This document shows, piece after piece, positions 65-38,944 of a stretch of 64,000 nt of DNA. The translations under genes were made by a program, and so were the position numbers. The notes beneath the pieces were generated by a model. That model had not been told where the DNA came from, did no database searches, and was given only the letters and a program-made list of their open reading frames with translations. Source of the DNA: a virus (Duplodnaviria; Caudoviricetes); the IMG/VR virus record IMGVR_UViG_3300032232_001415, positions 32,001 to 96,000 of that record. The stretch is one strand, 5' to 3'. Every line of letters starts with the position of its first letter. Positions within the stretch are counted from its first letter, which is position 1.

Positions 65-949
65 ATGAAAAAAAATAAACCATTCGTTATAAGTACAGGA
101 TCATTCGATTTAGGCATTGGTGGAATCAAAGTACTACATAAACTTTGTGATTTATTAAATAGGTCTAATATTGAAGCATATATTATTGGAGCAGAAGACT
201 CTGGTAAAAAAACATCAGATCATACTAATTTTTTTATATATGATCAATATAAAACACCTCTAGCACCACAAGAACTTTTAAATCATAAAAATGATTTTAT
301 AGCCATATATCCAGAAAGCTGGTATGGTAATCATCTAGGATGTAATAATGTTGTTAGATGGATTTTAGGTCCAACAAGCGAGGATCATATAAAAACTTGG
401 TCAAATAAAGATCTTTGGTTTTGGTATATACCAATGTTTCAAAACAAAGAATATAATAAACAATTACAAAATATTGAAAATCAATTATATGTTGGAGAAT
501 TTCATAGAGACGTATTTAAAAATAATCATTTAGATAGATTCACTACATGCTGGGCGCTCAGAAAAGCAGAAACAGAAAAAGACAAGGTGAGATTAATACA
601 TCCTTCTGATGGTCAATTTATACCATATCAAGCTGCCGGTCAAATATTAAAATTATCAAAATTGTTCAACGCTAGTACTCATTTTTATTGTTATGATACT
701 TATACTTTTTTGCCAATACAGGCTTTAATGTGTGGTTGTTTATCTATAGTTATTCCTAAAAATAATATATCATATGACGATTTTATGAATGGTTTTAAAT
801 TATGTAAATATATAGCATATGGGGAAGAAGATCTGCCAAGAGCCATAACTATCCAGAATGAGCTATATCAAGATATAGATGCCATAGAAAATGAAACTAA
901 ACAACAAATCCAAAATTTTGTGGAAAAATGTTATGATTACTTCCGATGA
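65..949 (+). CDS. putative glycosyltransferase (WavQ-like, GT-B type)
   Basis: GGIKVLHKLCDLLN, IAIYPE, NVVRWILG and YDTYTFLPIQALMCGC motifs resemble WavQ-like GT proteins of polysaccharide clusters. Confidence 0.55.
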   Translation: MKKNKPFVISTGSFDLGIGGIKVLHKLCDLLNRSNIEAYIIGAEDSGKKTSDHTNFFIYDQYKTPLAPQELLNHKNDFIAIYPESWYGNHLGCNNVVRWILGPTSEDHIKTWSNKDLWFWYIPMFQNKEYNKQLQNIENQLYVGEFHRDVFKNNHLDRFTTCWALRKAETEKDKVRLIHPSDGQFIPYQAAGQILKLSKLFNASTHFYCYDTYTFLPIQALMCGCLSIVIPKNNISYDDFMNGFKLCKYIAYGEEDLPRAITIQNELYQDIDAIENETKQQIQNFVEKCYDYFR

Positions 950-2009
950 TTTTAGCTTTTTAATAGTCACGCCAGCTAAAGACCCACTAAGACTTATAGC
1001 GGTTATTAAACAAATAAGAAATTATTATCCAAATAATGAAATAGTTATTGTGTATGATAATATTAAATTTCAATTAAAAAAATACATACAAACTCATAAT
1101 ATAAAAGAAATCTATCCAAACAAAAGAGTTTATATCGGTGGCGGATATAATTTAGCATTAAAAAATGCTTCAAATAAATGTTTTGCATTTCTTCATGATG
1201 ATACTTATATATATGAAAATTTTATAGAAAATCTTCTTGAATATATTGATGAAACAACATTTGCTAATTTCTCTTTAATAGAACCAAATTTATATAATAA
1301 TAGACAAGACTCAATTCTTAATCCTATAAGAAATTTTGGACGAGATAGTATAAGTTTTGATTATACATCATTTGAAAAATTTTGTAAACACCACATACAA
1401 TCCATACCACCAGATAAAATAACTGCACCTTCTATATTTGGTGGATTTTTTATGTGCGGATTTATTAAGCCAATACTTGATATAGGCGGTTTTGATGAAT
1501 ATATAACGCCATATTTTAGCGAAGATGCTGATTTAATACTGCGTATGATTCTTAAAGGATATAAATTTATTCATATTACAACCAGTCTAGTATATCATAT
1601 GGGTAGTTTAACATCAAGATCGGATAAAGAAGAATACGTATTGTCCGAAACAACAACAAAAAATAAATTTCTCAAAAAATGGCGAGTACCATTTGAGCTG
1701 ATAAAAGAAAATACTATTAAAAATCAAATACCATTAATTAAATTTAATGTAAAAATTGATACAACGAATATTAAAGATTATTATATAATTAATTATATTA
1801 ATAATATATCAGATAATATGAATTATACTGTTGATCACAGCACAGTAACTATAGAATCAGATCTGGATGAAAATGATATGGCAAATTTAAATGTTTTACC
1901 ATATATAGCAACACTGAATAAAGATAAACCAATAGTTACAATAGGAAATCTAACAATAAATATTAATCCAAAATCTTTTTCTCCATATCAAATAATGGCA
2001 AATATATGA
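933..2009 (+). CDS. glycosyltransferase family 2
   Basis: FSFLIVTP, GGGYNLALKNA, FLHDD (DxD-like), GGFDE and SEDADL motifs. Start placed at ATG 933 rather than 891 to reduce the overlap. Confidence 0.8.
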   Translation: MITSDDFSFLIVTPAKDPLRLIAVIKQIRNYYPNNEIVIVYDNIKFQLKKYIQTHNIKEIYPNKRVYIGGGYNLALKNASNKCFAFLHDDTYIYENFIENLLEYIDETTFANFSLIEPNLYNNRQDSILNPIRNFGRDSISFDYTSFEKFCKHHIQSIPPDKITAPSIFGGFFMCGFIKPILDIGGFDEYITPYFSEDADLILRMILKGYKFIHITTSLVYHMGSLTSRSDKEEYVLSETTTKNKFLKKWRVPFELIKENTIKNQIPLIKFNVKIDTTNIKDYYIINYINNISDNMNYTVDHSTVTIESDLDENDMANLNVLPYIATLNKDKPIVTIGNLTININPKSFSPYQIMANI

Positions 2010-2953
2010 AAACATTATATATAACAGGATGCTTAGGCTTTATAGGCTCTTATGTTACAATCGAATGCCTAAATAGAGGCTGGTTTGTAAAAGGTGTTGA
2101 TAAAATAACATACGCTGCCAATAAAACTTTGTTAGATAAATTTAAAAAATACACTAATTTTTCATTTATTCATTGTGATATTAATGATATTAAATTTTTA
2201 TATGACTGTGACTATGTAATAAATACTGCTGCGGAAACACATGTAGGAAATTCTATAGCAAAAAGTGAAGACTTTGTTAGTTCAAATATTAATGGAGTAT
2301 ATAATATATTAGAACTATTAAAAAATTATAGACAAGAAACTACAAATTTTCCTACGCTTATACACTTTAGTACAGATGAAGTTTATGGAGATATATCATC
2401 TGGTCATCATTTAGAGTCAGACATACTAAAACCTAGTAATCCATATTCCGCTACAAAAGCTGCCGCAGATATGTTAATATTAGCTTGGGCAAGAACATAT
2501 AAATTACCATATATTATAGTCAGGCCAACTAATAATTATGGAATTGGTCAATATGTAGAAAAATTAATACCAAAAACTTGTAAATATTTGAATTTAAATA
2601 GGAGGATACCACTTCATAATAATGGAACACCAATAAGAAATTGGCTCCATGCACAAGATACCGCCAAAGCTATAATGACAATTATTGATAGTAATATTAA
2701 AAATGAAATATATAATGTCTGTGGAGGATTTGAACTATCAAACATAGATGTTGTCAGATCTATCATAGAACTCGTGCATAAAAATAATGACTATCAAAAA
2801 TATATTGATTTTTCTGTAGAAAGACCAGGACAAGATGTTAGATACTCTTTAGACGATTCAAAATTAAGATCATTAGGATGGCAACCAGAAAAGATTTTTG
2901 CAGCAGAACTTCCATCTATAGTATCGTATTACAAGGATAAATTTATATGGTAA
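2006..2953 (+). CDS. rfbB: dTDP-glucose 4,6-dehydratase
   Basis: TGCLGFIG Rossmann motif, DKITYAA, AAETHV, STDEVYG, PYSATKA (YxxxK), NNYG, RNWLHA and RPGQDVRY. Confidence 0.9.
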   Translation: MKTLYITGCLGFIGSYVTIECLNRGWFVKGVDKITYAANKTLLDKFKKYTNFSFIHCDINDIKFLYDCDYVINTAAETHVGNSIAKSEDFVSSNINGVYNILELLKNYRQETTNFPTLIHFSTDEVYGDISSGHHLESDILKPSNPYSATKAAADMLILAWARTYKLPYIIVRPTNNYGIGQYVEKLIPKTCKYLNLNRRIPLHNNGTPIRNWLHAQDTAKAIMTIIDSNIKNEIYNVCGGFELSNIDVVRSIIELVHKNNDYQKYIDFSVERPGQDVRYSLDDSKLRSLGWQPEKIFAAELPSIVSYYKDKFIW

Positions 2954-3561
2954 ATGAAAGAAAATATAGCGTCGATTGGTTCAGTCATAATATACCAATA
3001 TGGAATGAAGTTTTTACTAAAAATAATATTATTGGTAAAGATAATTTAAGATTTTTAGAAATTGGTTGTTTTGAAGGTTTAGCAACTAATTATATGTTAG
3101 ATAATATCTTAACTCATGAAACATCAAAAATTGATATTATTGATACATTTCTTGGCTCAGTTTCAGAAGCTGGGATGTCTGGACATACTCATAATGATAC
3201 AGGATTTAAAGAACTATATAATATTTTTATGTCTAATACTCTAGATCATAAAGCAAAATTAAATGTTCATATCGGACAATCAAATGATATATTAAGAACT
3301 TTTCCTAATACTCCAACGTTCGATTGTATTTATATAGATGGATCCCATAAAGCTTTTAATGTTTTAGAGGATGCCGTTTTATGTAACTCCTTGCTTAAAA
3401 CTAATGGGATTTTAATTTTTGATGACTATGAATGGAAAGATAGCAACAACCCAGAACCATATAATTCACCTAAAATAGCAATAGATTCCTTTATATATAA
3501 CTTTGCTCCATTTTATGGACTTATCAATAAAGGATATCAGATTATAGTTAAAAAATTATGA
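2947..3561 (+). CDS. class I SAM-dependent methyltransferase (Methyltransf_24-like)
   Basis: LEIGCFEG, IDTF, FDCIYIDGSH and GILIFDDY. Confidence 0.85.
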   Translation: MVNERKYSVDWFSHNIPIWNEVFTKNNIIGKDNLRFLEIGCFEGLATNYMLDNILTHETSKIDIIDTFLGSVSEAGMSGHTHNDTGFKELYNIFMSNTLDHKAKLNVHIGQSNDILRTFPNTPTFDCIYIDGSHKAFNVLEDAVLCNSLLKTNGILIFDDYEWKDSNNPEPYNSPKIAIDSFIYNFAPFYGLINKGYQIIVKKL

Positions 3562-3851
3562 TTATCTATATAGATATAGATGAAACAATATGTAATAGTC
3601 CAGATGCTCCAGATTATACCACTAGTGTTCCGATATGTGAAAATATTAAAAAGGCCAATTTACTATTTGATCTTGGACATACTATAATATACTGGACGGC
3701 TCGTGGCAATAGGACAGGAATGGACTGGAGAGAATTAACAGAAAAACAGTTTAAGCATTGGGATGTCAAGTATCATGATTTAAAATTTGGAAAACCATCG
3801 TACGATCTTTTTATAGATGACAAAAATATGAATACTATAGACTGGAAATAA
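3558..3851 (+). CDS. small HAD-superfamily phosphatase-like protein
   Basis: IDIDETIC (DxD), YWTARG and GKP..DLFIDDK. Confidence 0.75.
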   Translation: MIIYIDIDETICNSPDAPDYTTSVPICENIKKANLLFDLGHTIIYWTARGNRTGMDWRELTEKQFKHWDVKYHDLKFGKPSYDLFIDDKNMNTIDWK

Positions 3852-3870
3852 AACTAATTATAGGTATACT

Positions 3871-4671
3871 ATGAATAATAGAGAAGTTCAATGTGTAACA
3901 ATACTTTCAGACTTAATAGAAAATGAAGGATTAATTGGAATTAAAACTTCTTTTGAGGATGAGGGGGCATCTTTCAACGAAACTATACGCCTTAAAGAAA
4001 TTTGTAATCAAGCTAATACCAAAATTACACTCAAAATTGGGGGACCAGAAGCTATTAGAGATATAAAGGATTCCTTGATCATAGGAGTTAAAGGACTTGT
4101 TGCTCCTATGGTAGAATCAGCTTTTGGACTTCAAAAATTCGTCCAAGCAATTGATAAAAATATTCCTGAGACTTCACTATCTACTATCAATTTAAATATC
4201 AATATTGAAACTATAGGTGCTATTCAAAATTTAGAAAAAATATTAAACACAGATGAGATAAATAAACTATATGGCATAACTATCGGTAGAGTTGATTTGG
4301 TTTCTTCATTTGGTAAAGATAGAACTTTTGTGGATAGCGATGAAATATATTTGATTGTAAAAAATGCTTTTATTAAAATTAAAGAAAAAGGACTAAAATT
4401 ATGTTTAGGAGGAGCAATATCTATGGATTCTTTGGTTTTTTTAAAGAAATTACATTCTGAAGGATTATTAGATAAATTTGAAACAAGGTACGCCATATAC
4501 GACCCATCAATTGCTTTAAAAAATTTATCAAGATCCCTTACTAAGGGACAGCTATTTGAATACGAATGGCTACAATATAAACATGAATATTATATGAATT
4601 TTGCTAATCAAGATATCAAAAGAATACAAATGATACAAGATAGAATCAATCAGTCGCTACAAAAGAGGTAA
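3871..4671 (+). CDS. HpcH/HpaI aldolase / citrate lyase family protein
   Basis: GIKTSFEDEG, KIGGPEAIRD, APMVES, INIET and IGRVDL. Confidence 0.8.
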   Translation: MNNREVQCVTILSDLIENEGLIGIKTSFEDEGASFNETIRLKEICNQANTKITLKIGGPEAIRDIKDSLIIGVKGLVAPMVESAFGLQKFVQAIDKNIPETSLSTINLNINIETIGAIQNLEKILNTDEINKLYGITIGRVDLVSSFGKDRTFVDSDEIYLIVKNAFIKIKEKGLKLCLGGAISMDSLVFLKKLHSEGLLDKFETRYAIYDPSIALKNLSRSLTKGQLFEYEWLQYKHEYYMNFANQDIKRIQMIQDRINQSLQKR

Positions 4672-4682
4672 AAATTAAATAT

Positions 4683-5081
4683 ATGACAACATACTCTAAT
4701 TTAGTAAAAGAAGAAGAATCCAATATAATTGCTATAGATTTTGATGGCGTAATTCATAGCTTTGAATATGGGTTTCATGATGGAACAATCTACGGAACAC
4801 CAATAGAAGGGTCAATCGATGCCATTAAAAGAATAGCTGCGGCCTATAAGATTGTCCTGTTCACTGCAAAAGCAAGATCAGATAGACCATTAATCAATGG
4901 CAAAACTGGAAAAGAACTAGTATGGGAATGGCTAAAAAAATATGATATATCGCAATACATATTTGATATAACAGCAGAAAAACCCAGATGTATTTGTTAT
5001 ATAGATGATAAAGCTATAAATTTTAAAAATTGGACCCAGGCACTAAATGACTTGAAAGATTTTATAAATGAAAGTGTCTGA
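4683..5081 (+). CDS. HAD-superfamily phosphatase-like protein
   Basis: IAIDFDGVIH, FTAK and EKP..YIDDKA. Confidence 0.75.
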   Translation: MTTYSNLVKEEESNIIAIDFDGVIHSFEYGFHDGTIYGTPIEGSIDAIKRIAAAYKIVLFTAKARSDRPLINGKTGKELVWEWLKKYDISQYIFDITAEKPRCICYIDDKAINFKNWTQALNDLKDFINESV

Positions 5082-6813
5082 TATAGTAATTCAATTTTTA
5101 GAATCAAAAAATATTGAACATGTATTTACTGTTTCTGGTGGCGGATGCATACACCTAATAGATTCTTTAGGTAAATCAAAAAGAATACAATATGTTTGCA
5201 CACATCATGAACAATCAGCAACTATGGCCACTGAAGGATATTTCAGACTAAGTAATAAGATTAGTGCATCCATTGTCACAACAGGGCCGGGAGGAACCAA
5301 TGCTCTTACTGGAGTGTTAGGATGTTGGTTAGATAGTATACCATCAATCATAATCTCTGGACAAGTTCCATCAAAACAATTAAATATTGGTACTGGTTGC
5401 AGACAAATCGGCGATCAAGAATTCAATATTATAGATTGTGTTAAGTCAATGACCAAATATGCAGTTGTGCTAGATAAACCAGAGAATATATTATATGAAT
5501 TAGAAAAAGCATATCAATATGCTACTACTGGCCGTCCTGGTCCAGTGTGGATAGATATTCCATTAGATTTTCAGGGGGCGGAAATCGATATAGAAAATAT
5601 TAATAAATATCAAAGCAATAATATTGATTACAAAATATCTAATGATGAATTATTAAAATTTAAAAATTTGCTAGAACAAGCTAAACAGCCATTGATTGTA
5701 GCTGGTAATGGCATTAGAATTTCTAATAGTATTAAATTATTAGATAAGTTTATTAAAAAATATAATATTCCAGTTGTTACTGGAATTCATAGTGGAATAG
5801 ATAGCGTAGATAACGAATATGCATTTTATTGTGGAAGAATTGGTATTCTAGGACAAATAACTGCTAATGAAATAATTCAAGAAGCTGATTTATTAATTGT
5901 TCTAGGTAGTAGACTAAGTGTTAAGATGTCAGGATACAATATTACTGAATTTGCTCCAAAAGCTAAAAAAATTCAAGTAGACATAGATCCTGCAGAAATT
6001 AATAAGCATAAATTTTTAATAGATCTTAAAATAATTACAGATTTGACACAATTTTTAAATATTATAAACAAAAAAAAATATAACATACAAATAGATCCAT
6101 GGAAAAATCATGTTTACGAAATAAGAAAACAACAAAAATATTTTTATGCAAAACATGAGAATATGCAAAACTATGTTAGTATCTATTATTTTATGAGTAT
6201 ACTTAAAAAATATGCATATAATTATCCAATAATAACTAGTGATGGCTCGGCACATGTTGTAACATTACAATCGTACAATCTTATAAAAGATCAAATATGC
6301 TTTACTAATGTTGGGTGCGCAAGTATGGGATATGGATTACCAGCATCTATCGGGGCATGCTTTGCAAATAATAAAGAACCCGTTATTTGTATGGAAGGCG
6401 ATGGAAGCATACAGATGAATATTCAAGAACTACAAACCATTATTCATCATAAACTACCAATAAAAATATTTGTAATAAATAATCAAGGATATTTATCTAT
6501 TAAAATAACACAAGAATCATTTTTTGGTGGAAACGAGGTCGCATCTGGCCCAGATAATGGAGTTAGTTTTCCTAATTTAGAAAAAATTAGTAATGCTTAT
6601 GGCATCAAATACTATAGTATTAATAATAATAAAAATATAAATACAATATTAAATGATGTATTTAGTTATGATGGACCATTAATTTGTGAATTATTTGGAT
6701 ATCCTTATGAGAAGCACGAACCAAAAGTCACTCATAAAGGTATTGATAAAAATGGAAATATTATTCCTGGCAATTTAACCAATATGACTATCTCTGATTC
6801 ATTTAACTTATGA
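5068..6813 (+). CDS. ThDP-dependent acetolactate-synthase-like enzyme (YerE-like branched-sugar synthase by context)
   Basis: HHEQ, TTGPGGTN, GRPGPVWIDIPLD, SMGYGLPASIGA and the GDGS..N ThDP motif. It sits inside a nucleotide-sugar cluster. Confidence 0.85.
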   Translation: MKVSDIVIQFLESKNIEHVFTVSGGGCIHLIDSLGKSKRIQYVCTHHEQSATMATEGYFRLSNKISASIVTTGPGGTNALTGVLGCWLDSIPSIIISGQVPSKQLNIGTGCRQIGDQEFNIIDCVKSMTKYAVVLDKPENILYELEKAYQYATTGRPGPVWIDIPLDFQGAEIDIENINKYQSNNIDYKISNDELLKFKNLLEQAKQPLIVAGNGIRISNSIKLLDKFIKKYNIPVVTGIHSGIDSVDNEYAFYCGRIGILGQITANEIIQEADLLIVLGSRLSVKMSGYNITEFAPKAKKIQVDIDPAEINKHKFLIDLKIITDLTQFLNIINKKKYNIQIDPWKNHVYEIRKQQKYFYAKHENMQNYVSIYYFMSILKKYAYNYPIITSDGSAHVVTLQSYNLIKDQICFTNVGCASMGYGLPASIGACFANNKEPVICMEGDGSIQMNIQELQTIIHHKLPIKIFVINNQGYLSIKITQESFFGGNEVASGPDNGVSFPNLEKISNAYGIKYYSINNNKNINTILNDVFSYDGPLICELFGYPYEKHEPKVTHKGIDKNGNIIPGNLTNMTISDSFNL

Positions 6814-7940
6814 AAAAATGTAATTTTTGCAATAATATTCTAGAACATATATATACTCCTTATAATTCTAAAATTAATTTAGAAATTTTCATATGCGTCG
6901 AGTGCGGATTGGTTCAGAGCGATTATGATCAGGCATTGTACGAAGAATCTAATGTATGTAAAAAAATAAAGTTTGATCATTTAGGTTGTGATGCAAATTA
7001 TTCTGATATTAGAGTTGGCAAACAACAAATGGTCAAATATATTTTTGATATTTTTGATAATTTAAAATTAAAACATCCTATTAAAAAAGTGCTTGATATG
7101 AGATCGGCCAGAGGTCATTTTGCATTAAGAGCATTAGACTATTTTAATATAGATAGCATAGATTGTATAGAAGAAGATATTTATATGCTAGATAACTATA
7201 AAAATAATTCTAAAATTAATATCATTAATACTAAATACCATCAACATATTAATTATGATTATGATTTGATATATTCTTGTCATAGTTTAGAGCATTATCA
7301 AAATCCTTCTAAATATTTAAAGTTTGTTAGAACTCTTTTAAATATTAATGGATATTTTTATATAGATGTTCCTAATTTAAACAATATTAATCATCAAAAT
7401 AATATAGATGAATTTTTTTATGATAAACACTTATATTATTATGATGCAATTACATTAATAAATTTTATAGAGAATATTGGATTTGAATTAGTTACACAAA
7501 AAATTTCAAATCAAAATATTGGGCTTTTATTCTATAAGTCCGATAATATTAATCTTTCTATTAAAAATAATCAATACATAAAAAATAAAAATTTAATAAG
7601 GTCTTACACATATAACATAAAACAAAATAGAAATAAACTTAGTAATATTAGTGTAAATTTTAATTCTGGAAATAATATTATTTTTGGTTGTGGTCGTCCT
7701 CTTGATGCTCTTGTCAAATATGCAAATTTAAATCTAAATCAGTTCAATTTTTTAGTAGATGATTTTTTATCAGAAATTACGGATACAATATATAGTAAAC
7801 CACTATATAATAGTAGCATATTAAAAAATAATAATATTGATAATATGTTATTAATGGTTAAAGAACCAGATATGTTATTAACAAAATTTAAAAACATTCC
7901 TAATATATTAACTTTATCTAGATTATTACATAATGAATAA
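6810..7940 (+). CDS. class I SAM methyltransferase with N-terminal Zn finger (sugar C/O-methyltransferase-like)
   Basis: CNFC..CVECGLVQ, YDLIYSCHSLEH, IDVPN, and a C-terminal IIFGCG Rossmann-like domain. Confidence 0.7.
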   Translation: MKKCNFCNNILEHIYTPYNSKINLEIFICVECGLVQSDYDQALYEESNVCKKIKFDHLGCDANYSDIRVGKQQMVKYIFDIFDNLKLKHPIKKVLDMRSARGHFALRALDYFNIDSIDCIEEDIYMLDNYKNNSKINIINTKYHQHINYDYDLIYSCHSLEHYQNPSKYLKFVRTLLNINGYFYIDVPNLNNINHQNNIDEFFYDKHLYYYDAITLINFIENIGFELVTQKISNQNIGLLFYKSDNINLSIKNNQYIKNKNLIRSYTYNIKQNRNKLSNISVNFNSGNNIIFGCGRPLDALVKYANLNLNQFNFLVDDFLSEITDTIYSKPLYNSSILKNNNIDNMLLMVKEPDMLLTKFKNIPNILTLSRLLHNE

Positions 7941-8784
7941 AATTATTATTTTAAGTCCACCAAGAAGTGGTAGTTCTATTCTAGCTAAACTAATAGAATC
8001 AGCTGGATATAAAAATTTTATTTCAAAAAATTCATTCCTACTATCTGGATCAGAATACAATAAAGATGGATATTTTGAGGATATTGCAATAACACTATTA
8101 AATGATCAACTTATTCGTATGTGCTACGGAAGCGACTATAGTTTTTTACATACTCCATCATTTGATTCATACAAAAAAATTAATTTACACAATAATATAT
8201 CATTTAAATATAATTTAGAAAATTTATTTATACCTAGTCAATATAAAGAAAAAATATTTGAGTATACTGGGAATACTTGGGATTCGTGGGGCATTACCAG
8301 AATGCTTGAAGGAGAAAAATGGCATAAGTGCTATAATAGATATAATATAGATAATTATACTAATATCATAGATGCTTTATCTGAGATAGTAACATCTTTC
8401 AATAATAATAACCAAAACATAATTATTAAAGATCCAAGACTTGCTTTAATAATGCCAGTATATAAGTTTGATCAAAAAATAAAAATTTTATATATTAAAC
8501 GTCAATATAAAAATATAAAAAAATCAATTTTAAAACACTATGGACCTAATTTATTCACCAAAAAATATATTTTTGATACTAAATATTGTTCAAATTATTT
8601 TAATTATTTAATTAAATATCAAAGCTTTAGATACTATATAAAGACATATAATAAAATTATTGAAGAGTCATTGAATAAATATGAATCATTGACTATAGAT
8701 TATGAAAAATTAAATAAAAAATCTACAATTGATAAAATTAATTACTTTATTGGTTCCTCAATAGACTCTACTCTGATTAAATAA
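7933..8784 (+). CDS. sulfotransferase-family protein
   Basis: SPPRSGSS PAPS-binding-like loop, GYFED, IKDPRL and IDYEKL. Confidence 0.7.
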   Translation: MNKIIILSPPRSGSSILAKLIESAGYKNFISKNSFLLSGSEYNKDGYFEDIAITLLNDQLIRMCYGSDYSFLHTPSFDSYKKINLHNNISFKYNLENLFIPSQYKEKIFEYTGNTWDSWGITRMLEGEKWHKCYNRYNIDNYTNIIDALSEIVTSFNNNNQNIIIKDPRLALIMPVYKFDQKIKILYIKRQYKNIKKSILKHYGPNLFTKKYIFDTKYCSNYFNYLIKYQSFRYYIKTYNKIIEESLNKYESLTIDYEKLNKKSTIDKINYFIGSSIDSTLIK

Positions 8785-8794
8785 AAAAATACTT

Positions 8795-11901: not shown

Positions 11902-11904
11902 ATA

Positions 11905-13923: not shown

Positions 13924-13948
13924 TTTGTGTACACCGAAAAAACTTTTG

Positions 13949-13976
13949 TTGCAACTTTCTGACGCCATCCTATAAT
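13949..13976 (+). promoter_or_regulatory. sigma70-type promoter upstream of nrdJ
   Basis: TTGCAA-16 nt-TATAAT in the divergent intergenic region. A second TATAAT lies at 14030-14035. Confidence 0.55.
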
Positions 13977-32876: not shown

Positions 32877-32902
32877 AGGGGATATAAAAATCCCCTTTTC
32901 TT
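32877..32902 (+). terminator. intrinsic terminator after ssb
   Basis: AGGGGAT-ataaaa-ATCCCCT hairpin followed by TTTCTT. Confidence 0.75.
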
Positions 32903-32933
32903 GTGTTTCTACATAAGCCAGTACAATAAACAT

Positions 32934-34601
32934 ATGATAAAAAAACTAAAAATATTAATGTGCTCAGAGGCTAGTTTTTTAAGTTCTGGTTTCGGAACTT
33001 ATGCTAAAGAAATTTTAAGCCGTCTACATAAAACTGGCAAATATGAAATAGCAGAATTTGCATCTTATGGAAAAACTAATGACCCTAAAGATATTGGTAT
33101 AGATTGGAAATATTATGCCAATGCTGTTGATGACAAAGACCCTAGGCATCAAGAATACTCATCGTCTGCAGAAAATCAATTTGGTAGATGGAGATTTGAG
33201 AGGGTTCTATTAGATTTTAAGCCAGACATAGTTTTTGACGTTAGAGACTATTGGATGAGTTCATATCAACAATTTTCTCCATTAAGACCATTTTTCCACT
33301 GGGTCCTTATGCCAACCGTCGATTCCGAACCACAGCAAGAGGATTGGATAGATACTTTTTTACATGCAGATGCCATATTCACCTATTCTGATTTTGGAAG
33401 AGATACTCTTATAAAGCAATCTAATAATCGTATAAATTATATAGATACAACATCTCCAGGTGTTGATCTTAATACATTTATTCCGATGGATAAGAAAAGC
33501 ATAAAACAAAGCTTTAATCTAGATCCAGATATGTTTATTATTGGATCTATTATGAGAAATCAAAAGCGTAAGTTAATACCAGACCTGTTCTATTCTGTAA
33601 AAAAACTATTAGAAAAATGCGAAAAAGAAGGAAATCATAAATTAGGTAAAAATATATATCTATATTTACACACTAGTTATCCTGATGCTGGTTGGGATAT
33701 CCCTCAATTATTGAAAGAATATAAGATAGGCAATAGGGTTCTGTTTACATATACATGTAAAAATTGTGGACATTATTATCCATCATTATTTCAACATCCT
33801 GTGGCACACTGTCAAAGATGCGGACAAAAAAGTTGTTCTATGCCAAACGTAAGTGCCGGCATACCAGCAAATGATCTTGCACGAATTATTAATCTATTCG
33901 ATATCTACGCACAATATGCGATATGCGAAGGTTTTGGAATGCCACAAGTTGAAGCCGCATCTTGTGGAATTCCGATAGCATCTGTAGACTATAGTGCAAT
34001 GAGTGACGTTGTTAGAAAAGTCAATGGATACCCAATTAAGGTTGGTCAATATTTTAAAGAACTAGAAACTAAAGCTATCAGAGTATTTCCAGATAATGAA
34101 GATTTTATTAACATAGTTGAAAATTTTTATAATCTTCCAGATTTTCTTAAAAAACAAAAGTCTTCTGAGACTAGATTATTAACTGAAAAATATTATAATT
34201 GGGATAATATTGCTAAAAAATGGGAAAACTATTTTGATAATATAAAGCTAACAGGATTGCAAGGAAGATGGGACGTAGAAATTCCGCAGATGCCGGAAAT
34301 AACAGAGTTACCAAAAGATCTATCTAATCCCTATGATCTAATTACTAATCTCATATCAAAACATTTGCCAAATCATCACATGGCATCATCAATTTTGTCT
34401 TTAAATATGATAAGAGATCTTACTTATGGATTTGTTGTTAATGGATATCAAACAGAAGGCTATAATATAAATAGAGCTGTTGATACTTTAAATACTATAA
34501 TAAAAAATCATAATATTGCTCAAATAGGAAAATCAAATCATGATAAATTATCAAAAGAAGATTTTATCGATTATGCACATATGAAGGATAGCTTAAAATG
34601 A
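32934..34601 (+). CDS. GT4-like glycosyltransferase with internal Zn finger
   Basis: SGFG, RNQKRK, YLHT, EGFGMPQVEAASCG, plus a CKNC..CQRC insertion. Confidence 0.85.
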   Translation: MIKKLKILMCSEASFLSSGFGTYAKEILSRLHKTGKYEIAEFASYGKTNDPKDIGIDWKYYANAVDDKDPRHQEYSSSAENQFGRWRFERVLLDFKPDIVFDVRDYWMSSYQQFSPLRPFFHWVLMPTVDSEPQQEDWIDTFLHADAIFTYSDFGRDTLIKQSNNRINYIDTTSPGVDLNTFIPMDKKSIKQSFNLDPDMFIIGSIMRNQKRKLIPDLFYSVKKLLEKCEKEGNHKLGKNIYLYLHTSYPDAGWDIPQLLKEYKIGNRVLFTYTCKNCGHYYPSLFQHPVAHCQRCGQKSCSMPNVSAGIPANDLARIINLFDIYAQYAICEGFGMPQVEAASCGIPIASVDYSAMSDVVRKVNGYPIKVGQYFKELETKAIRVFPDNEDFINIVENFYNLPDFLKKQKSSETRLLTEKYYNWDNIAKKWENYFDNIKLTGLQGRWDVEIPQMPEITELPKDLSNPYDLITNLISKHLPNHHMASSILSLNMIRDLTYGFVVNGYQTEGYNINRAVDTLNTIIKNHNIAQIGKSNHDKLSKEDFIDYAHMKDSLK

Positions 34602-35719
34602 ATATTTTATACATTGGACCATACAGGCAAAAAGATAGTATGGGACTAACATCGAGAAATCATCTCAAAACTATAGCAAAAAAATATAGCAATATTACTG
34701 TTAGACCGGTATATTTTAAAAAACATGATCCATTTTTTAATGATCAACAAATTTTATCTTTAGAAGATAGCGAATACGAAAATTATGATGTTGTAATACA
34801 ACATAGTATTCCAGGATATTTATTTAGAAATAAGTCCTATTCTAAAAATATAGGATTAATCTCCGTAGAGTCTCATAATCTTAATGATTCTAGTATTATA
34901 TCCAATATTAATACTATGGATGAAATATGGGTATCAACAGATTATGAAAAAAATATACTTATTAAATCTGGAGTTAATAAAAATATAAAAATTATACCTC
35001 CATCTCTAGATATTGATCTGATACAATCCTTTAAGGATCACAAAATACCTTTAAATCCTATTATAGACAGAATGTTTAAATTTTATTTTATTGGAGATTA
35101 TTTAGAAAGAAAAAATCTAACAGATCTAATAGTAGCATTTAATTTAGCATTTGACTATAACGATCAGGTCTGTCTTATTATAAAAACTAATATCGATGAT
35201 ATTAATCCACAAGAAACTAAAAAGAAAATAGAACAAGATATTGTAAACATAAAAAAGAAATTAAGAATTGGTAATAAATATAAACAAGAAATTATAATTA
35301 CTGAAAATATATCATATAAGGATAAAATTGGATTACATAACACATGTGACTGTTTTATAGCCCCATCATATGGAGAATCATTTTGTAAATCCGTTGCCGA
35401 AGCTGTGGTACTGGGGAAAACTCCAATTTTTAATAATAATACAGCAATGAGGGAATATGTTGATGAATCTTCAGGATTTCCCCTGAAGAGTCATAAGATT
35501 CCAGTACTTGTCGATAATGTGGATATAAAAGATTTTGATACCCTTACAGCTAATGAGTATTGGTACAGAATAGACATTTATGATTTAATTGAGAAGATGC
35601 AAGAAGTATATAAAATGCATAAATCAAAAAATGATAAACTAATTAAAAAAATTGAACAAGGCAAACTAAATTCTAACACTTTTTCATTTGAAGAAACTGG
35701 TAAAAAAATATGCATTTAG
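34598..35719 (+). CDS. GT4-like glycosyltransferase
   Basis: MDEIWVS, ERKNL and DCFIAPSYGESF...EA. Confidence 0.85.
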   Translation: MNILYIGPYRQKDSMGLTSRNHLKTIAKKYSNITVRPVYFKKHDPFFNDQQILSLEDSEYENYDVVIQHSIPGYLFRNKSYSKNIGLISVESHNLNDSSIISNINTMDEIWVSTDYEKNILIKSGVNKNIKIIPPSLDIDLIQSFKDHKIPLNPIIDRMFKFYFIGDYLERKNLTDLIVAFNLAFDYNDQVCLIIKTNIDDINPQETKKKIEQDIVNIKKKLRIGNKYKQEIIITENISYKDKIGLHNTCDCFIAPSYGESFCKSVAEAVVLGKTPIFNNNTAMREYVDESSGFPLKSHKIPVLVDNVDIKDFDTLTANEYWYRIDIYDLIEKMQEVYKMHKSKNDKLIKKIEQGKLNSNTFSFEETGKKICI

Positions 35720-36630
35720 GAACAAGTGTAGCTAATATTTTAAATAAATTCAATAATCAACCCATTAATATATTGTATAATCCACAATATAATATGTTTG
35801 ACATGCTCTTAGGGTTGGTCAGCGATAATATATACGTTGTTGATGATAGAATATCCACACTAAATAATAATTCAATTAAAGTATTAAAAAATAATCAAAT
35901 TGATTTATTTTCATACAATGTTGGTATAACGAATAGTATATTTCAATATACGTCAAATAAGTATTTTAATAATCTTCATATTAATGGAATTATACTAACA
36001 CATTCTAATAAACCCAATCAGATAAAAAAAGAAGATTCATTGCTCATGAATCAGAATCTAGAAAAAGAATATAAGATATTTTTTACACAAAAGATAGCTT
36101 CTTCATGGAGATTATCTAATAGCATAGTTGTACCTTATGGGATTCCACTGAACTTATTTAATATTGATGCAAATATAAATAGAAAACCAAATACTGTTCT
36201 TATAATAAATTATGAAAGAATGCCTAATATTAATGCCTTAAAACAATTATTAGAGACCAATGGGATAAAAGTGGATATCTCATCAGAGATTAATTTTAAT
36301 CCTAAGGATGTAAAAAAACTATTCAATCAATATAAAGTATGTATAGATATTAGTGAACATAATATTAGTAATTTATTATGCTCCATAGCTTGTGGATGTA
36401 ATGCTATAACCTATGCGACACCTATGATAATGGAGAATTTTGCTAATACACCAAATCTTTATACTGCAAAATCAGTTGAAGATTTAATAAATGTTATCAA
36501 GAAAATCTTTGAAAAAGAAACAATAAATGATTTTACTGAATATTTTGATAAAAACTATAATTTTGAATTAATGAAAGATAAATTATCAACACTTATTAAG
36601 AAATGTAATCAAGAGGCATTTGTATTATGA
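35710..36630 (+). CDS. divergent GT-B glycosyltransferase-like protein
   Basis: VVPYGIPLNLF and LFNQYKVCID..NLLCSIACGC. Confidence 0.55.
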   Translation: MHLGTSVANILNKFNNQPINILYNPQYNMFDMLLGLVSDNIYVVDDRISTLNNNSIKVLKNNQIDLFSYNVGITNSIFQYTSNKYFNNLHINGIILTHSNKPNQIKKEDSLLMNQNLEKEYKIFFTQKIASSWRLSNSIVVPYGIPLNLFNIDANINRKPNTVLIINYERMPNINALKQLLETNGIKVDISSEINFNPKDVKKLFNQYKVCIDISEHNISNLLCSIACGCNAITYATPMIMENFANTPNLYTAKSVEDLINVIKKIFEKETINDFTEYFDKNYNFELMKDKLSTLIKKCNQEAFVL

Positions 36631-37046
36631 ATAATATTAAGATCAATATCATGCATGATCATCATGGAGAAGAGATTGATGGTTTTACAAACATACCACA
36701 TGATCAAATAACAAATGTTATTAATGGCACTATTAATGAAATAATTTGTAGTACTCTGGATTATTGTGAATATCAAGATAGAATCAATCTAATAATTACT
36801 CTTTGTAAAAAAATCGCAAATAATGGGACGATAACTTTCAAATTTATTAATGGAACAAAATTACTTAAAGATGCTATCAAAGGCAATTCAAATAGTCAAT
36901 ATCTGTCAAAAATTATCAAAGAGTCAAAATCATTATTTTTGGAATCGGATGTGTTAGAGATAGTATCTCAAATTAATACAGTACAAATACTTAAACAGTT
37001 TAATAGCAATGAATACTCCGTATTAGTTCTTCAAAAGAAACTATGA
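36627..37046 (+). CDS. degenerate methyltransferase-like protein
   Basis: EII..TLDY...LCKKIANNGTI resembles MTase motifs but lacks a clear GxG motif I. Confidence 0.4.
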   Translation: MNNIKINIMHDHHGEEIDGFTNIPHDQITNVINGTINEIICSTLDYCEYQDRINLIITLCKKIANNGTITFKFINGTKLLKDAIKGNSNSQYLSKIIKESKSLFLESDVLEIVSQINTVQILKQFNSNEYSVLVLQKKL

Positions 37047-37726
37047 AAAAACTAGCTTGTTTTATACTATCCTACGACATAACAAAAGGAATGAAATCAA
37101 TAGGCCCAAAAGCACTATTGAAATCCAAAAAATCAAAAGAACTAATAAATTGTCAAATATCTAGTATTAAAGATAAAAATATAGATATAAATATAATTCT
37201 TGGATTTGGTTCTGAAAAAATTAAGAAAAAAGTAGATCACAATGTTAACTTTATTGATAATCTATTATATGAATCTACTAATCAAGCTTATGCTTTAGAA
37301 CTCATTATGGATAACTATGATTATGAAATTTATGATGGATGTATTATTATTAATAATGGTATACTATTCCATTATGACATAAAAAATATTTTACTACAAG
37401 ATAAAAATATATCGAAGATTTTTTATATGCAAAATTCAAAAAAAAATGAGTTTTCCATAGGTGTTACGATTCACAACGATAATGCATCACATATGTTTTT
37501 TAATTTAGATCATAATTCTTGGTGTGAAATAATATATCTTAATAATGAAACTATGAACTACTACAAAAATACATATATAAAAGAAATGAGAAATATGTTT
37601 TTATTTGAATTATTCAATAAGTCTATTGATGATGGAAATACTTTCAAAGCAGTTAAAATTAATAAAAATAAATTAATAAAAATTTCTTCAATAAAGGATT
37701 CTGAAAAGATAAAAAACATTTTATGA
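37043..37726 (+). CDS. sugar nucleotidyltransferase-like protein (GT-A / NTP_transf fold)
   Basis: KGMKSIGPKALL, ILGF and NLLYESTNQAY resemble LicC/NTP-transferases. Confidence 0.6.
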   Translation: MKKLACFILSYDITKGMKSIGPKALLKSKKSKELINCQISSIKDKNIDINIILGFGSEKIKKKVDHNVNFIDNLLYESTNQAYALELIMDNYDYEIYDGCIIINNGILFHYDIKNILLQDKNISKIFYMQNSKKNEFSIGVTIHNDNASHMFFNLDHNSWCEIIYLNNETMNYYKNTYIKEMRNMFLFELFNKSIDDGNTFKAVKINKNKLIKISSIKDSEKIKNIL

Positions 37727-38478
37727 AAATATTAATACATAAAGCAGATCAAAAACTGTATCTCCCTATCATCTCTGTTATTGCTGAAGACAAAAGTAAT
37801 ATTGTTATGACAGGATCATTACACGGCAACGCATTTGATACTTTTAATCAAGTTATGCCGGATATGGTCATATTACCGATATACGAATATACTCAAGAGC
37901 TACATGAACTTGTAAACGCTTTTAAAGATAAAAGTAGATTCGCACTATTTATGGGTGATATTAACAATGACAGCTTAATTGACTATTATAATAAAAATAA
38001 TATTATGATAATATCAAAAGAATCTAAGAAACAACTTAAATTGCCAAATCATATAACATATGACTATCTTTATGATTCCAATTTATTTTCCAATAAAAAT
38101 TTGCAAAGAAATGATAAGTTATTAGTTATTCTATCATCAAATAATGATACTAACCACAAAAAATTAGACAATTTACTTTATCCACACACAAAATCAAAAC
38201 TATGCTTAATCAATAATCCAGACTTTGAACATGCTCAGAATATTGGTCTAGCCAATGAACTAGACATATCTCATCTGATGAATACATACGGGTCATTAAT
38301 AGATATTGATAATAATTATATAGTTGAAGCAAAAGTTTGTGGTATCAAAAACATTGAATTAGAAGATTCTGTACCAATTGGCGAATCAAAAGAAAAGACT
38401 CTAGATATAGACGTTAATAAATGCGATACAAAATATTTTGTGCAAAATAAATTATTACCAATAATACAAGGGAAATAA
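37723..38478 (+). CDS. divergent GT-B-like protein
   Basis: PDMVI, HAQNIG and YIVEAKVCG; lies within the GT cluster. Confidence 0.4.
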   Translation: MKILIHKADQKLYLPIISVIAEDKSNIVMTGSLHGNAFDTFNQVMPDMVILPIYEYTQELHELVNAFKDKSRFALFMGDINNDSLIDYYNKNNIMIISKESKKQLKLPNHITYDYLYDSNLFSNKNLQRNDKLLVILSSNNDTNHKKLDNLLYPHTKSKLCLINNPDFEHAQNIGLANELDISHLMNTYGSLIDIDNNYIVEAKVCGIKNIELEDSVPIGESKEKTLDIDVNKCDTKYFVQNKLLPIIQGK

Positions 38479-38479
38479 A

Positions 38480-38944
38480 ATGGATATAGGATTTTATGCT
38501 ATAGATATGGATTATTCTGAAAAAAATAATGATATCGTTAAAGCAATGAATGATATTGTTGAAAATGATATTTATAGCAATGTTATATTATTCAATAATA
38601 CATACAATAGAGCAGATGGTAATAAGAAATTTCCTATCATAAATTTTAATCAAGCAAAATATTTTAAAGGAATATTAATTAGTTTTGACTTAAGAAGCGC
38701 TGCTATAACAAGAACTTTTCCTAGTCCGATAAAACAATTTTTTGTTGTTGATGAGTTGCCATGGATAAATAATACTAAAGCTCCAGTATCATTTTGGAAT
38801 AGCATATATAATAATCAATATATAGATCTGATAGTAAATAATCAAGAAAATTTTGATCTATTAGAAATATGTTGGAAAAAACCAGTTAAAGTCCTGGAAA
38901 AAATAGAAGCGAAAGGTATTTTAGATGTTATTAAAACATTATAA
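38480..38944 (+). CDS. hypothetical protein (GT-like single domain)
   Basis: 154-aa ORF in the GT cluster. Confidence 0.45.
   Translation: MDIGFYAIDMDYSEKNNDIVKAMNDIVENDIYSNVILFNNTYNRADGNKKFPIINFNQAKYFKGILISFDLRSAAITRTFPSPIKQFFVVDELPWINNTKAPVSFWNSIYNNQYIDLIVNNQENFDLLEICWKKPVKVLEKIEAKGILDVIKTL

What the first reader, a model, noticed from the sequence alone, without database searches (positions are those of the whole stretch)
65..38944. Phage-encoded glycosylation system of ~25 genes in three clusters
Seen in sequence: a genome with phage replication and tail genes also carries about ten GT or GT-like ORFs (GT2, GT4, GT9 halves, WavQ-like). It further has RfbB, an SDR epimerase, a ThDP enzyme, an aldolase, two HADs, several methyltransferases, a sulfotransferase-fold protein, HldA/HldC-like enzymes and a nucleotidyltransferase-like protein (65-10889, 11338-13923, 32934-38944). 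No flippase, Wzy/Wzz, ABC exporter or undecaprenyl-phosphate initiating transferase is present, and none of these ORFs has obvious multi-TM segments. Established: host LPS/capsule pathways need such membrane components, and virion glycosylation is known in giant viruses and some actinobacteriophages. Inference: this is a soluble, self-contained pathway that builds a methylated, possibly sulfated glycan of unusual sugars on a cytoplasmic acceptor such as virion proteins or DNA.
Basis: partly seen in the sequence, partly recalled or inferred. Interest (0 to 1): 0.85.

Follow-up and report, generated by a model that had tools for sequence, protein, structure and literature searches.

The report
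Modular sugar-building gene set in a jumbo phage
A ~226-kb uncultured aquatic phage really does carry about 24 soluble sugar-pathway genes. They are not one system: a seven-gene module is shared by its whole phage family, and a swappable "glycan island" differs even between sibling strains. What gets glycosylated is still unknown.

Summary
24 ORFs in three clusters are sugar-nucleotide enzymes, glycosyltransferases (GTs) or tailoring enzymes; about 20 have a significant family or fold match. None has several membrane-spanning segments.

The contig is a real phage. Relatives are complete 200-230 kb genomes with terminal repeats.

"One self-contained ~25-gene system" is not supported. Cluster 3 (32901-38944) is a syntenic core of a very large uncultured phage family. 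It holds two GT4, compact GT-B-like proteins and a LicC-like nucleotidyltransferase. Homologues of its first GT even carry inteins at three conserved sites.

Clusters 1 and 2 are accessory:
- The heptose module is a 2.7-kb insertion between dCMP deaminase and RNR.
- A sibling phage that is ≥95% identical by DNA over window ~9800-23500 carries a different sugar cassette at window ~3850-9800.
- The window's cassette is 70-80% identical in protein to cassettes in T4-like phages.

Four complete relatives lack Wzx, Wzy, initiating transferases and GT-C enzymes. They also lack ThyA-type and C5-methylase genes, which known DNA glycosylation needs.

The acceptor is unresolved. My odds: virion proteins about 0.4, host envelope about 0.3, DNA about 0.2.

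Sibling notes in this scan had already flagged the three clusters separately.

The parts
65..949 (+). 294-aa GT-B-like protein with a WavQ-type fold
   Evidence: No Pfam or PHROG hit. The Atlas model matches WavQ clusters at TM 0.72-0.81.
891..2009 (+). GT2 glycosyltransferase (372 aa)
   Evidence: PF00535, E 2.7e-11.
2006..2953 (+). dTDP-glucose 4,6-dehydratase-like SDR (RfbB-like)
   Evidence: TIGR01181, E 2e-90, 303 bits against a cut-off of 365. 70-74% identical to genes in T4-like phage islands.
2947..3561 (+). Class I SAM methyltransferase (Methyltransf_24)
   Evidence: PF13578, E 9e-15.
3558..3851 (+). Short HAD-like protein (97 aa)
   Evidence: phrog_1238, E 1.5e-23. Retained at 87% identity in sibling L168.
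3871..9598 (+). Exchangeable sugar cassette: HpcH/HpaI aldolase (3871-4671), HAD-like 132 aa (4683-5081), ALS-like ThDP enzyme (5068-6813), Methyltransf_23 (6810-7940), sulfotransferase-like (7933-8784), SDR (8795-9598)
   Evidence: Family hits. The region is replaced in the sibling phage L168 by NeuB, a 58%-identical ThDP enzyme, adh_short, a DHQ-synthase-like gene, a 308-aa ORF and a 53%-identical SDR. Its genes are 52-80% identical to T4-like contigs L164 and L166.
9585..10889 (+). GT2 glycosyltransferase (434 aa). The right border of the divergent segment lies at about 9800, inside its 5' part.
   Evidence: PF00535, E 5e-9. Identity profile against L168.
11338..12342 (-). GT9-like GT-B encoded as two ORFs: N-domain 11905-12342, C-domain 11338-11901. 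A single in-frame TGA separates them, with an AGGA before the downstream ATG.
   Evidence: PF01075, E 1e-5 on the C-half. Sequence read. The same two-ORF split is seen in L168 (146+187 aa) and L169 (140+181 aa, different frames).
12339..12731 (-). HldC-like heptose-1-phosphate nucleotidyltransferase (130 aa)
   Evidence: TIGR02199, E 9e-33, 113 bits against a cut-off of 181.5.
12728..13504 (-). HldA-like PfkB sugar kinase (258 aa)
   Evidence: TIGR02198, E 2e-33, 116 bits against a cut-off of 345. 3123 short homologues; every context I read (L168, L169) is a phage of this family.
13561..13968 (-). Cupin, candidate sugar-phosphate isomerase standing where GmhA would be
   Evidence: Cupin_2, Lyx_isomer and PMI C-terminal hits. 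Conserved at the head of the module in L168 and L169.
32901..34601 (+). Core GT4-type GT-B with an inserted Cys4 ribbon and a helical C-terminal domain. The likely start is 32934.
   Evidence: PF00534. Found in 79 of 80 relatives at up to 73% identity. 2946 homologues. Model pLDDT 86.5; best PDB match is chlorovirus NY-2A B736L, E 3e-16, TM 0.77. Homologues carry inteins.
34598..35719 (+). Core GT4 (373 aa)
   Evidence: PF00534, E 2e-10. The profile matches WbaZ, GlgA and B736L.
35710..37046 (+). Two core ORFs of uncertain function (306 aa, weakly GT-like; 139 aa, unknown)
   Evidence: Profile against PDB 8xsg, E 0.007. No Pfam hit in any of the 22 and 17 family members scanned. Syntenic in relatives.
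37043..37726 (+). Core LicC-like nucleotidyltransferase (227 aa)
   Evidence: The profile matches CTP:phosphocholine cytidylyltransferase 1jyk, E 7e-12. It is kept even in the reduced four-gene version of the module (L025, L039).
37723..38944 (+). Core compact GT-B-like protein (251 aa) and a single Rossmann-domain protein (154 aa) that resembles half of a GT-B
   Evidence: Atlas structure matches CgeB/GT4 at TM ~0.75. The 154-aa model has pLDDT 90; its best PDB rows are MshA and WbnH at E 5e-3, which is not significant.

Best explanation
The window holds two kinds of phage glycan machinery, not one pathway.

(1) A core module follows ssb directly. It has two GT4, two or three minimal GT-B-like proteins and a LicC-like nucleotidyltransferase. 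Thousands of related 200-230 kb aquatic phages carry it in the same order. It probably activates one host-supplied phospho-sugar or phospho-alcohol and transfers it, then further residues, onto a conserved acceptor.

(2) An accessory glycan island comprises cluster 1 plus the inserted NDP-heptose module with its split GT9. It supplies unusual donors:
- a 6-deoxy sugar, or a branched or higher-carbon sugar, made through a 4,6-dehydratase, an aldolase, a ThDP enzyme and an SDR
- an NDP-heptose
- methyl groups and probably sulfate
- extra transferases

The island is rebuilt by cassette exchange, even with T4-like phages.

All steps are cytoplasmic and soluble. I infer that the acceptor is made by the phage itself, most likely virion proteins. 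The core module would lay a conserved inner glycan and the island a strain-specific outer part, as in chloroviruses.

Shown: gene identities, solubility, and the core-versus-accessory pattern. Inferred: the donors, the order of steps and the acceptor.
For: Core status of cluster 3:
- The first GT is in 79 of 80 DnaE-anchored relatives at 39-73% identity. The other six genes are found at 22-51% identity wherever the flank reaches, in fixed order and with fixed lengths.
- A reduced four-gene form keeps the first GT and the nucleotidyltransferase.
- 2946 homologues from freshwater and Tara marine samples. 876 representative clusters at E<=1e-30.
- Inteins sit at three conserved motifs of the GT, with Cys at the start and HN+Cys at the end.

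Accessory status of clusters 1 and 2:
- No homologues of the heptose module or of the central sugar cassette at these positions in 160 relative loci; only distant SDR and GT2 hits (24-34% identity) turn up in a few.
- The deaminase-RNR gap is 114-181 bp in 51 relatives and 2.7 kb here.
- No HldA-like gene in four complete relatives.
- Sibling L168 is 95-100% identical in every 100-nt window from ~9800 to 11400, and 96.7% overall across 8777-23504, but carries another cassette at ~3850-9800.
- The cassette is 70-80% identical to islands in contigs with gp44, gp62 and RegA.

Soluble machinery:
- No multi-TM ORF in the window.
- No Bac_transf, Glycos_transf_4, Wzx, Wzy_C or PMT_2 in four complete relatives, with positive controls.

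Viral-protein precedent:
- The best structural match of the core GT is a chlorovirus GT.
- In the G001/G002 clade, a family-conserved GT2 lies among fibre-like genes and overlaps the stop of a poly-Thr protein.
Against: - Nothing here identifies the acceptor.
- None of the three window clusters lies in a structural operon. Cluster 3 is co-directional with replication genes, and cluster 2 sits between nucleotide-metabolism genes.
- GT9, WavQ-like and HldA/HldC-like enzymes are typical of LPS inner-core synthesis.
- The GT2/poly-Thr link holds in only 3 of 80 GT2 loci. The fibre-anchor motif is found in only 4 of 80.
- The proposed [ST]G sequon bias is significant only in the 521-aa protein.
- After the chlorovirus protein, the nearest solved structures to the core GT are small-molecule GT4s, MshA and BshA.
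Confidence: 0.4

Rival explanations
1. Host-envelope remodelling. The soluble transferases act at the cytoplasmic face of the host inner membrane, on lipid A-core or undecaprenyl-linked intermediates. The host's own MsbA, Wzx or ABC transporters export the altered glycan. This would change receptors, giving superinfection exclusion or keeping progeny from sticking to debris.
For: - GT9 heptosyltransferase-like, WavQ-fold, and HldA/HldC-like genes are LPS-core-type enzymes.
- Such enzymes need no TM segments and no phage-encoded flippase (established biochemistry of WaaC, WaaF and WaaG).
- The accessory, hypervariable, horizontally exchanged island behaves like an O-antigen or capsule locus.
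- Islands in T4-like phages add GT10 and GT11 fucosyltransferase-type genes.
Against: - The core module is conserved across thousands of marine and freshwater phages. It even hosts inteins. That is unusual for host-specific accessory genes.
- No initiating transferase and no periplasmic modification enzyme in complete relatives.
- Known seroconverting phages use membrane proteins such as GtrABC, Oac and Wzy (from my own knowledge).
Confidence: 0.3
2. DNA hypermodification. The core module, the heptose module or both glycosylate phage DNA to block restriction. The variable island would diversify the adduct in an arms race.
For: - Pyle et al. (bioRxiv 10.1101/2023.12.21.572611, read) showed phage GT-A and GT-B enzymes placing hexose, HexNAc, Kdo and heptose on 5hmC. 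One example uses a kinase/HAD enzyme, a cytidylyltransferase and a GT-B, which is the same logic as cluster 2.
- Cluster 2 lies between dCMP deaminase and RNR.
- Cluster 3 follows ssb and dnaE in one transcription direction, near a dNMP kinase.
- The core GT has a Cys4 ribbon and a marginal PC4-like hit, E 9e-4.
- Inteins favour DNA-metabolism genes (my own knowledge).
- Glycan type differs between strains, as in T-even phages.
Against: - Four complete relatives have no ThyA-family gene and no C5-cytosine methylase. Tet_JBP also gave nothing, but its control was silent.
- The window has none of these either.
- T4 beta-GT is not among the 50 best PDB matches of the core GT.
- Eight or nine transferases plus methylation and sulfation imply a larger glycan than the one-to-three-sugar DNA adducts known so far.
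Confidence: 0.2
3. A soluble product. The core GT4s make a small-molecule glycoside or a cytoplasmic oligosaccharide during infection, for example an osmolyte-like, thiol-cofactor-like or storage compound. They would not decorate a macromolecule.
For: After the chlorovirus protein, the best structural matches are MshA, BshA, GlgM and sucrose-phosphate synthase, all of which act on small acceptors.
Against: Several transferases in a row, plus a variable island of unusual sugar donors, are typical of heteropolysaccharide assembly. I know of no precedent in phages.
Confidence: 0.1

Closest known systems
Chlorovirus (PBCV-1, NY-2A) and mimivirus virion glycosylation machinery
   Same: - Virus-encoded soluble GTs, sugar-nucleotide enzymes and methyltransferases.
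- No use of membrane export.
- A conserved part plus lineage-variable clusters.
- The core GT's best solved structural match is NY-2A B736L.
   Different: - Here the virus is a tailed bacteriophage.
- The acceptor is unknown.
- The donors include an NDP-heptose and a ThDP-dependent cassette.
- No sequence-level orthology was shown (14% identity).
Mycobacteriophage virion glycosylation (Freeman et al. 2023, as cited in PMC12619734)
   Same: Phage-encoded GTs that act in the cytoplasm on capsid and tail proteins.
   Different: Those phages have one or two GTs inside the structural operon and use host sugar nucleotides. Here there are about 24 genes outside the structural operon, with their own donor synthesis.
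Phage DNA sugar hypermodification clusters (T4 alpha/beta-GT; Pyle et al. 2023 preprint; Lee et al. 2026, PMC13326640)
   Same: GT-B and GT-A enzymes with dedicated sugar-activating enzymes, including a heptose route. They lie near nucleotide-metabolism genes and differ between strains.
   Different: No ThyA homologue and no C5-methylase in the window or in four complete relatives; the Tet_JBP search also found nothing, but its control was silent. There are many more transferases and tailoring enzymes.
Bacterial ADP-heptose / LPS inner-core pathway (GmhA, HldA/HldE, GmhB, HldC, GT9)
   Same: Kinase, nucleotidyltransferase and GT9 lie in pathway order. The best family hits are rfaE domains I and II and RfaQ.
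   Different: - A cupin replaces the SIS-fold GmhA.
- No GmhB in the module.
- The kinase is N-terminally short.
- All scores are below equivalog cut-offs.
- The GT9 is split into two polypeptides.
Yersiniose-type branched-sugar synthesis (YerE/YerF)
   Same: A 4,6-dehydratase plus an ALS-like three-domain ThDP enzyme plus an SDR. DegT-family genes flank the cassette in other phages.
   Different: The cassette always pairs the ThDP enzyme with a C3-condensing enzyme (HpcH aldolase or NeuB) and a small HAD. That points instead to chemistry on a 2-keto-3-deoxy acid. No assay and no YerE-specific test was done.

Membership tests
Wzx/Wzy- or ABC-dependent surface polysaccharide locus | Initiating phosphoglycosyl transferase (Bac_transf or Glycos_transf_4) | tested here: not met
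   No hit in the window. 0 of 4 complete relatives, with controls positive.
Wzx/Wzy- or ABC-dependent surface polysaccharide locus | Flippase (Wzx) and polymerase/ligase (Wzy_C) | tested here: not met
   0 of 4 complete relatives. No multi-TM ORF in the window. The rest of the phage's own genome could not be searched.
ADP-heptose pathway with GT9 transferase | HldA-type kinase and HldC-type nucleotidyltransferase | tested here: inconclusive
   The best NCBIfam hits are rfaE domains I and II (E 2e-33 and 9e-33), but at 116 and 113 bits against cut-offs of 345 and 181.5.
ADP-heptose pathway with GT9 transferase | SIS-fold isomerase GmhA and HAD phosphatase GmhB | tested here: not met
   No SIS domain; a cupin stands at that position. 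The small HADs lie in cluster 1 and travel with the ThDP cassette, not with the heptose module.
ADP-heptose pathway with GT9 transferase | GT9 heptosyltransferase | tested here: met
   PF01075, 25.5 bits against a cut-off of 22, on the C-terminal ORF. The N-terminal ORF is assigned by position and by the read-through translation only.
Phage DNA glycosylation system | Enzyme that makes a hydroxylated pyrimidine (ThyA homologue, or C5-methylase plus TET/JBP dioxygenase) | tested here: not met
   PF00303 and PF00145: 0 of 4 complete relatives, controls positive. PF12851: 0 of 4, but the control was silent. None in the window.
Phage DNA glycosylation system | GT-B that resembles T4 beta-glucosyltransferase | tested here: not met
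   T4 BGT is not among the 50 listed PDB matches of the core GT model. T4 alpha-GT appears only at E 0.1 for the 154-aa protein.
Virion glycosylation of the mycobacteriophage type | GT genes inside the structural operon, next to their substrates | tested here: inconclusive
   The window clusters are not in the structural block. A different, family-conserved GT2 lies among fibre-like genes next to a poly-Thr protein in the G001/G002 clade. This holds in only 3 of 80 loci.
Virion glycosylation (any type) | Glycan attached to virion proteins | not testable with these tools
   Needs virions.
GT4 retaining glycosyltransferases | GT-B fold with the C-terminal donor-binding motif | tested here: met
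   PF00534 on both proteins. The model matches GT4 structures at E 1e-11 to 3e-16. The C-E-G-x-G-x-P-Q-x-E-A block is invariant in 24 homologues.

The most novel reading that the evidence does not exclude
The family-wide core module next to ssb and dnaE glycosylates phage DNA by a route that needs neither a ThyA homologue nor a methylase/TET pair. That would be a new DNA-glycosylation chemistry. The swappable island would set a strain-specific glycan that escapes modification-dependent restriction.
Probability: 0.1. Interest if true: 0.9.

Novelty: new variant of a known kind. Interest (0 to 1): 0.6.

Why it matters
Phage-encoded glycosylation has been shown experimentally only in a few cases: T-even and related DNA adducts, mycobacteriophage virions, and seroconverting prophages.

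Here a very abundant, uncultured family of 200-230 kb aquatic phages carries a conserved multi-GT module as a core function. On top of it sits a serotype-like island that is exchanged with T4-like phages. If the target is the virion or the DNA, phage particles in lakes and oceans would carry strain-specific glycans. That would bear on adsorption, restriction evasion, particle stickiness and carbon flux.

The work also yields concrete test objects:
- a minimal two-component core (the first GT plus the nucleotidyltransferase)
- a natural pair of sibling phages that differ mainly in one sugar cassette

Tried and rejected
- **Whole genome of the window.** None is held, and the phage's own contig could not be fetched. 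Genome-wide statements therefore rest on four complete relatives and on unchecked sibling notes.
- **Cultured relatives.** The best DnaE identity in 50,697 phage records is 35%.
- **'Moraphages' (PMC12619734).** I considered them as the family and rejected that. The paper builds its trees on a family B DNA polymerase and describes contractile-tail genes; this phage replicates with DnaE.
- **GT9 interrupted by TGA as a pseudogene or recoding.** Rejected. The two-ORF form is conserved in L168 and L169, and in L169 the halves are in different frames.
- **[ST]G 'sequon' bias in virion proteins.** Significant only in the 521-aa protein (z 4.7); absent or reversed in the others.
- **GT2/poly-Thr pairing as a family trait.** Holds in only 3 of 80 loci. 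The fibre N-terminal anchor motif is in only 4 of 80.
- **306-aa, 139-aa and 154-aa ORFs.** Profile-against-PDB and Pfam scans of family members gave nothing significant.
- **Intein domains in long GT homologues.** phmmer against PDB found nothing. The inteins were recognised from their junction residues instead.
- **PC4-like hit in the core GT** (E 9e-4). I treat it as marginal.

Full report
**What the window is**

The 64-kb window is about 30% G+C. It has a long plus-strand block and a minus-strand block.
- The plus-strand block holds class II RNR with a LAGLIDADG intein, PhoH, RecA, DnaB, primase, dNMP kinase, a PD-(D/E)XK nuclease, a split DnaE with an exonuclease between the halves, and SSB.
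- The minus-strand block holds very large proteins (2629, 1353 and 1454 aa) and the start of a giant tape measure protein.

No whole genome is held. The window's ThDP enzyme is recorded on a contig of 225,812 bp.

Cultured phages are distant: 35% or less on DnaE. IMG/VR holds at least 419 relatives by DnaE-C at 61-72% identity. These include complete genomes of 201-231 kb, three with direct terminal repeats. The contig is therefore a real phage of a large uncultured aquatic family, neither cellular nor chimeric.

**Check of the observation**

All ORFs of 80 aa or more were scanned.

| Cluster | Coordinates | Content |
|---|---|---|
| 1 | 65-10889 (+) | WavQ-fold GT-B protein; two GT2; RfbB-like 4,6-dehydratase; two class I methyltransferases; two small HAD-like proteins; HpcH/HpaI aldolase; three-domain ALS-like ThDP enzyme; sulfotransferase-like protein; SDR |
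| 2 | 11338-13968 (-) | cupin; HldA-like kinase; HldC-like nucleotidyltransferase; GT9 in two ORFs |
| 3 | 32901-38944 (+) | two GT4; LicC-like nucleotidyltransferase; 251-aa compact GT-B; two weak GT-like proteins; one unexplained ORF |

- The sulfotransferase-like protein is a sub-threshold Pfam hit, but it has an N-terminal SPPRSGSS loop that I read, from memory, as a PAPS-binding-type loop.
- The nucleotidyltransferase of cluster 3 is recognisable only with a family profile: 1jyk, E 7e-12.
- That makes 24 ORFs, about 20 with a significant family or fold match, and eight or nine transferases.
- A hydropathy scan finds at most one candidate TM segment in any of them.

**The three clusters have different histories**

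*Cluster 3 is a core module.*
- In 80 loci anchored on DnaE-C, the first GT is present in 79, at 39-73% identity.
- The following six genes recur in the same order and with the same lengths wherever the flank reaches, at 22-51% identity. That is lower than the flanking SSB (67-89%) and the three genes downstream (50-82%).
- More distant members carry a reduced four-gene form that keeps the first GT and the nucleotidyltransferase (L025, L039).
- The first GT has 2946 homologues at E<1e-5, from lakes and from Tara ocean samples. It has 876 representative clusters at E<=1e-30.
- Many homologues are 700-1330 aa because of insertions at three conserved motifs: after DFKPDIV, after MRNQ, and inside the C-E-G-x-G donor motif. 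Most of the insertions I read show intein hallmarks: all that could be read start with Cys or Ser, and five of the eight end in HN followed by Cys. So these are inteins.
- The modelled GT (pLDDT 86.5) is a GT4-type GT-B with an inserted Cys4 ribbon and a helical C-terminal domain. Its best solved match is chlorovirus NY-2A B736L (E 3e-16, TM 0.77), followed by MshA and BshA.

*Cluster 2 is an insertion.*
- In 51 PhoH-anchored relatives, the dCMP deaminase gene ends 114-181 bp before RNR. In the window the gap is 2.7 kb and holds the minus-strand heptose module.
- None of four complete relatives has the kinase.
- The short kinase has 3123 homologues; the two contexts I read, L168 and L169, are phages of this family.
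- In L169 the same five-gene module lies elsewhere, after RuvB, volactin and a trypsin gene. There it directly precedes another deoxysugar cassette: GT34, RfbB, a two-part ThDP enzyme, an SDR and DegT.
- The GT9 is two ORFs in all three phages. In the window one in-frame TGA separates them, with an AGGA before the next ATG. In L169 the halves are in different frames. It is therefore a conserved split at the GT-B domain boundary, not a broken gene.

*Cluster 1 is a mosaic island.*
- The 160 relative loci hold no homologue of its cassette genes (HADs, aldolase, ThDP enzyme, methyltransferases, sulfotransferase-like protein); only distant SDR and GT2 hits (24-34% identity) turn up in a few loci.
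- Sibling contig L168 is 95-100% identical in every 100-nt window from ~9800 to 11400, and 96.7% overall across window 8777-23504. It is 88% identical at 3381-3851.
- Between about 3850 and 9800 it carries NeuB, a 58%-identical ThDP enzyme, an adh_short protein, a DHQ-synthase-like protein, a 308-aa ORF and a 53%-identical SDR. The window has aldolase, HAD, ThDP enzyme, methyltransferase, sulfotransferase-like protein and SDR there.
- The window's RfbB, aldolase, HAD and ThDP genes are 68-80% identical in protein to genes in 15-kb GT-rich islands on two other contigs; its methyltransferase (55%) and SDR (52%) match less closely. Those contigs also carry a gp44-type clamp loader, gp62 and RegA, so they are T4-like phages.
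- More distant copies (63-71%) lie in other phage-like contigs.
- The sugar cassettes therefore move between unrelated phage lineages and are swapped between sibling strains.

In every version, the ThDP enzyme is paired with a C3-condensing enzyme (HpcH aldolase or NeuB), usually with a small HAD, and with an SDR. This fits either YerE-like branching of a 4-keto-6-deoxy sugar or chemistry on a 2-keto-3-deoxy acid. I could not tell these apart.

**What is absent**

Four complete relatives were searched.

| Family searched | Result | Control |
|---|---|---|
| Bac_transf | 0 of 4 | positive |
| Glycos_transf_4 | 0 of 4 | positive |
| Polysacc_synt (Wzx) | 0 of 4 | positive |
| Wzy_C | 0 of 4 | positive |
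| PMT_2 | 0 of 4 | positive |
| Thymidylat_synt | 0 of 4 | positive |
| C5 DNA methylase | 0 of 4 | positive |
| Tet_JBP | 0 of 4 | silent, so inconclusive |

They do carry 1-4 GT2, 3 GT4 and 1-3 epimerase/dehydratase genes, spread over several sites.

**Which acceptor?**

No result names it.

*For a phage-made acceptor:*
- The core module is conserved like a replication gene across hosts and biomes, and it even hosts inteins.
- The machinery is soluble and lacks lipid-carrier steps.
- The nearest solved structure is viral.
- In the G001/G002 clade, another family-conserved GT2 lies between fibre-like genes and overlaps the stop of a poly-Thr protein with 31-33 Thr in 40 residues. This pairing is seen in only 3 of 80 loci.
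- The [ST]G bias suggested by sibling notes is significant in only one protein.

*For the host envelope:*
- GT9, WavQ-fold and heptose enzymes are LPS-core types that need no TM segments. The host could export the product.
- The island behaves like an O-antigen locus.

*For DNA:*
- The position is among replication and nucleotide-metabolism genes.
- There is a published heptose-on-5hmC precedent with the same kinase, nucleotidyltransferase and GT-B logic.
- Against it: the base-hydroxylating enzymes that all known routes require are missing, and the number of transferases is large.

My estimates: virion proteins about 0.4, host envelope about 0.3, DNA about 0.2, a soluble product about 0.1.

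**Verdict**

- It is best described as a new variant of virus-encoded glycosylation: a core multi-GT module plus an exchangeable glycan island in an abundant family of aquatic jumbo phages.
- Sibling notes of this scan had already listed each cluster separately. The comparative results here are new to the scan.

Noticed in passing
window 32901-34601; homologues P0362, P0371, P0372, P0377, P0387, P0424: Homologues of the core GT4 carry one or two inteins at three conserved sites: after DFKPDIV, after MRNQ, and inside the C-E-G-x-G motif. Most insertions read begin with Cys (one with Ser) and five of eight end in HN followed by Cys. A glycosyltransferase is an unusual intein host. The window's copy has no intein.
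   Followed up: partly
window 11338-12342 (- strand); L168:11163-12170; L169:9150-10122: The GT9-like GT-B is encoded as separate N-domain and C-domain ORFs in three phages that are 49-98% identical. It is a conserved split enzyme rather than a pseudogene. In the window one in-frame TGA separates the halves, and AGGA precedes the next ATG.
   Followed up: yes
L171:9539-11387 (G001); L172:2513-5039 (G002); L174:3382-6546 (G004): A ~290-aa GT2 is conserved in all four complete relatives. It lies beside a protein with a poly-Thr tract of 25-33 Thr in 40 residues. In G001 it sits among fibre-like genes that share the common tail-fibre N-terminal anchor. This pairing is limited to a subclade (3 of 80 loci). 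The gene is not in this window.
   Followed up: partly
window 14080-17349: The class II RNR carries an intein with a LAGLIDADG domain. Most relatives have a 2.19-kb RNR without the intein. L104 and L160 have the long form.
   Followed up: partly
window 38925-39719: The 264-aa ORF that overlaps the end of cluster 3 is not a sugar gene. The family consensus has an IEVDGPSH block that I read, from memory, as typical of Vsr/DUF559-type endonucleases, and it matches an 'HNH endonuclease' PHROG. It is conserved at 50-65% in relatives. So are the next two ORFs (237 and 108 aa, unknown, 53-82%).
   Followed up: partly
window 26420-26986: A 188-aa ORF with a weak methyltransferase hit lies between the dNMP kinase and the PD-(D/E)XK nuclease. 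It has no counterpart in 160 relative loci. The 98% sibling contig has a 176-aa ORF at the same place.
   Followed up: no
L101, L110, L130, L152, L095 (upstream of the dCMP deaminase): Several relatives have different large insertions (886-1019 aa plus about 266 aa ORFs) directly upstream of the deaminase gene. This junction looks like a hot spot for accessory DNA in the family.
   Followed up: no
window 55890-57455: The 521-aa minus-strand protein has 22 [ST]G dipeptides against 10 expected (z 4.7), with no excess of G[ST]. The other large virion proteins in the window do not show this.
   Followed up: yes
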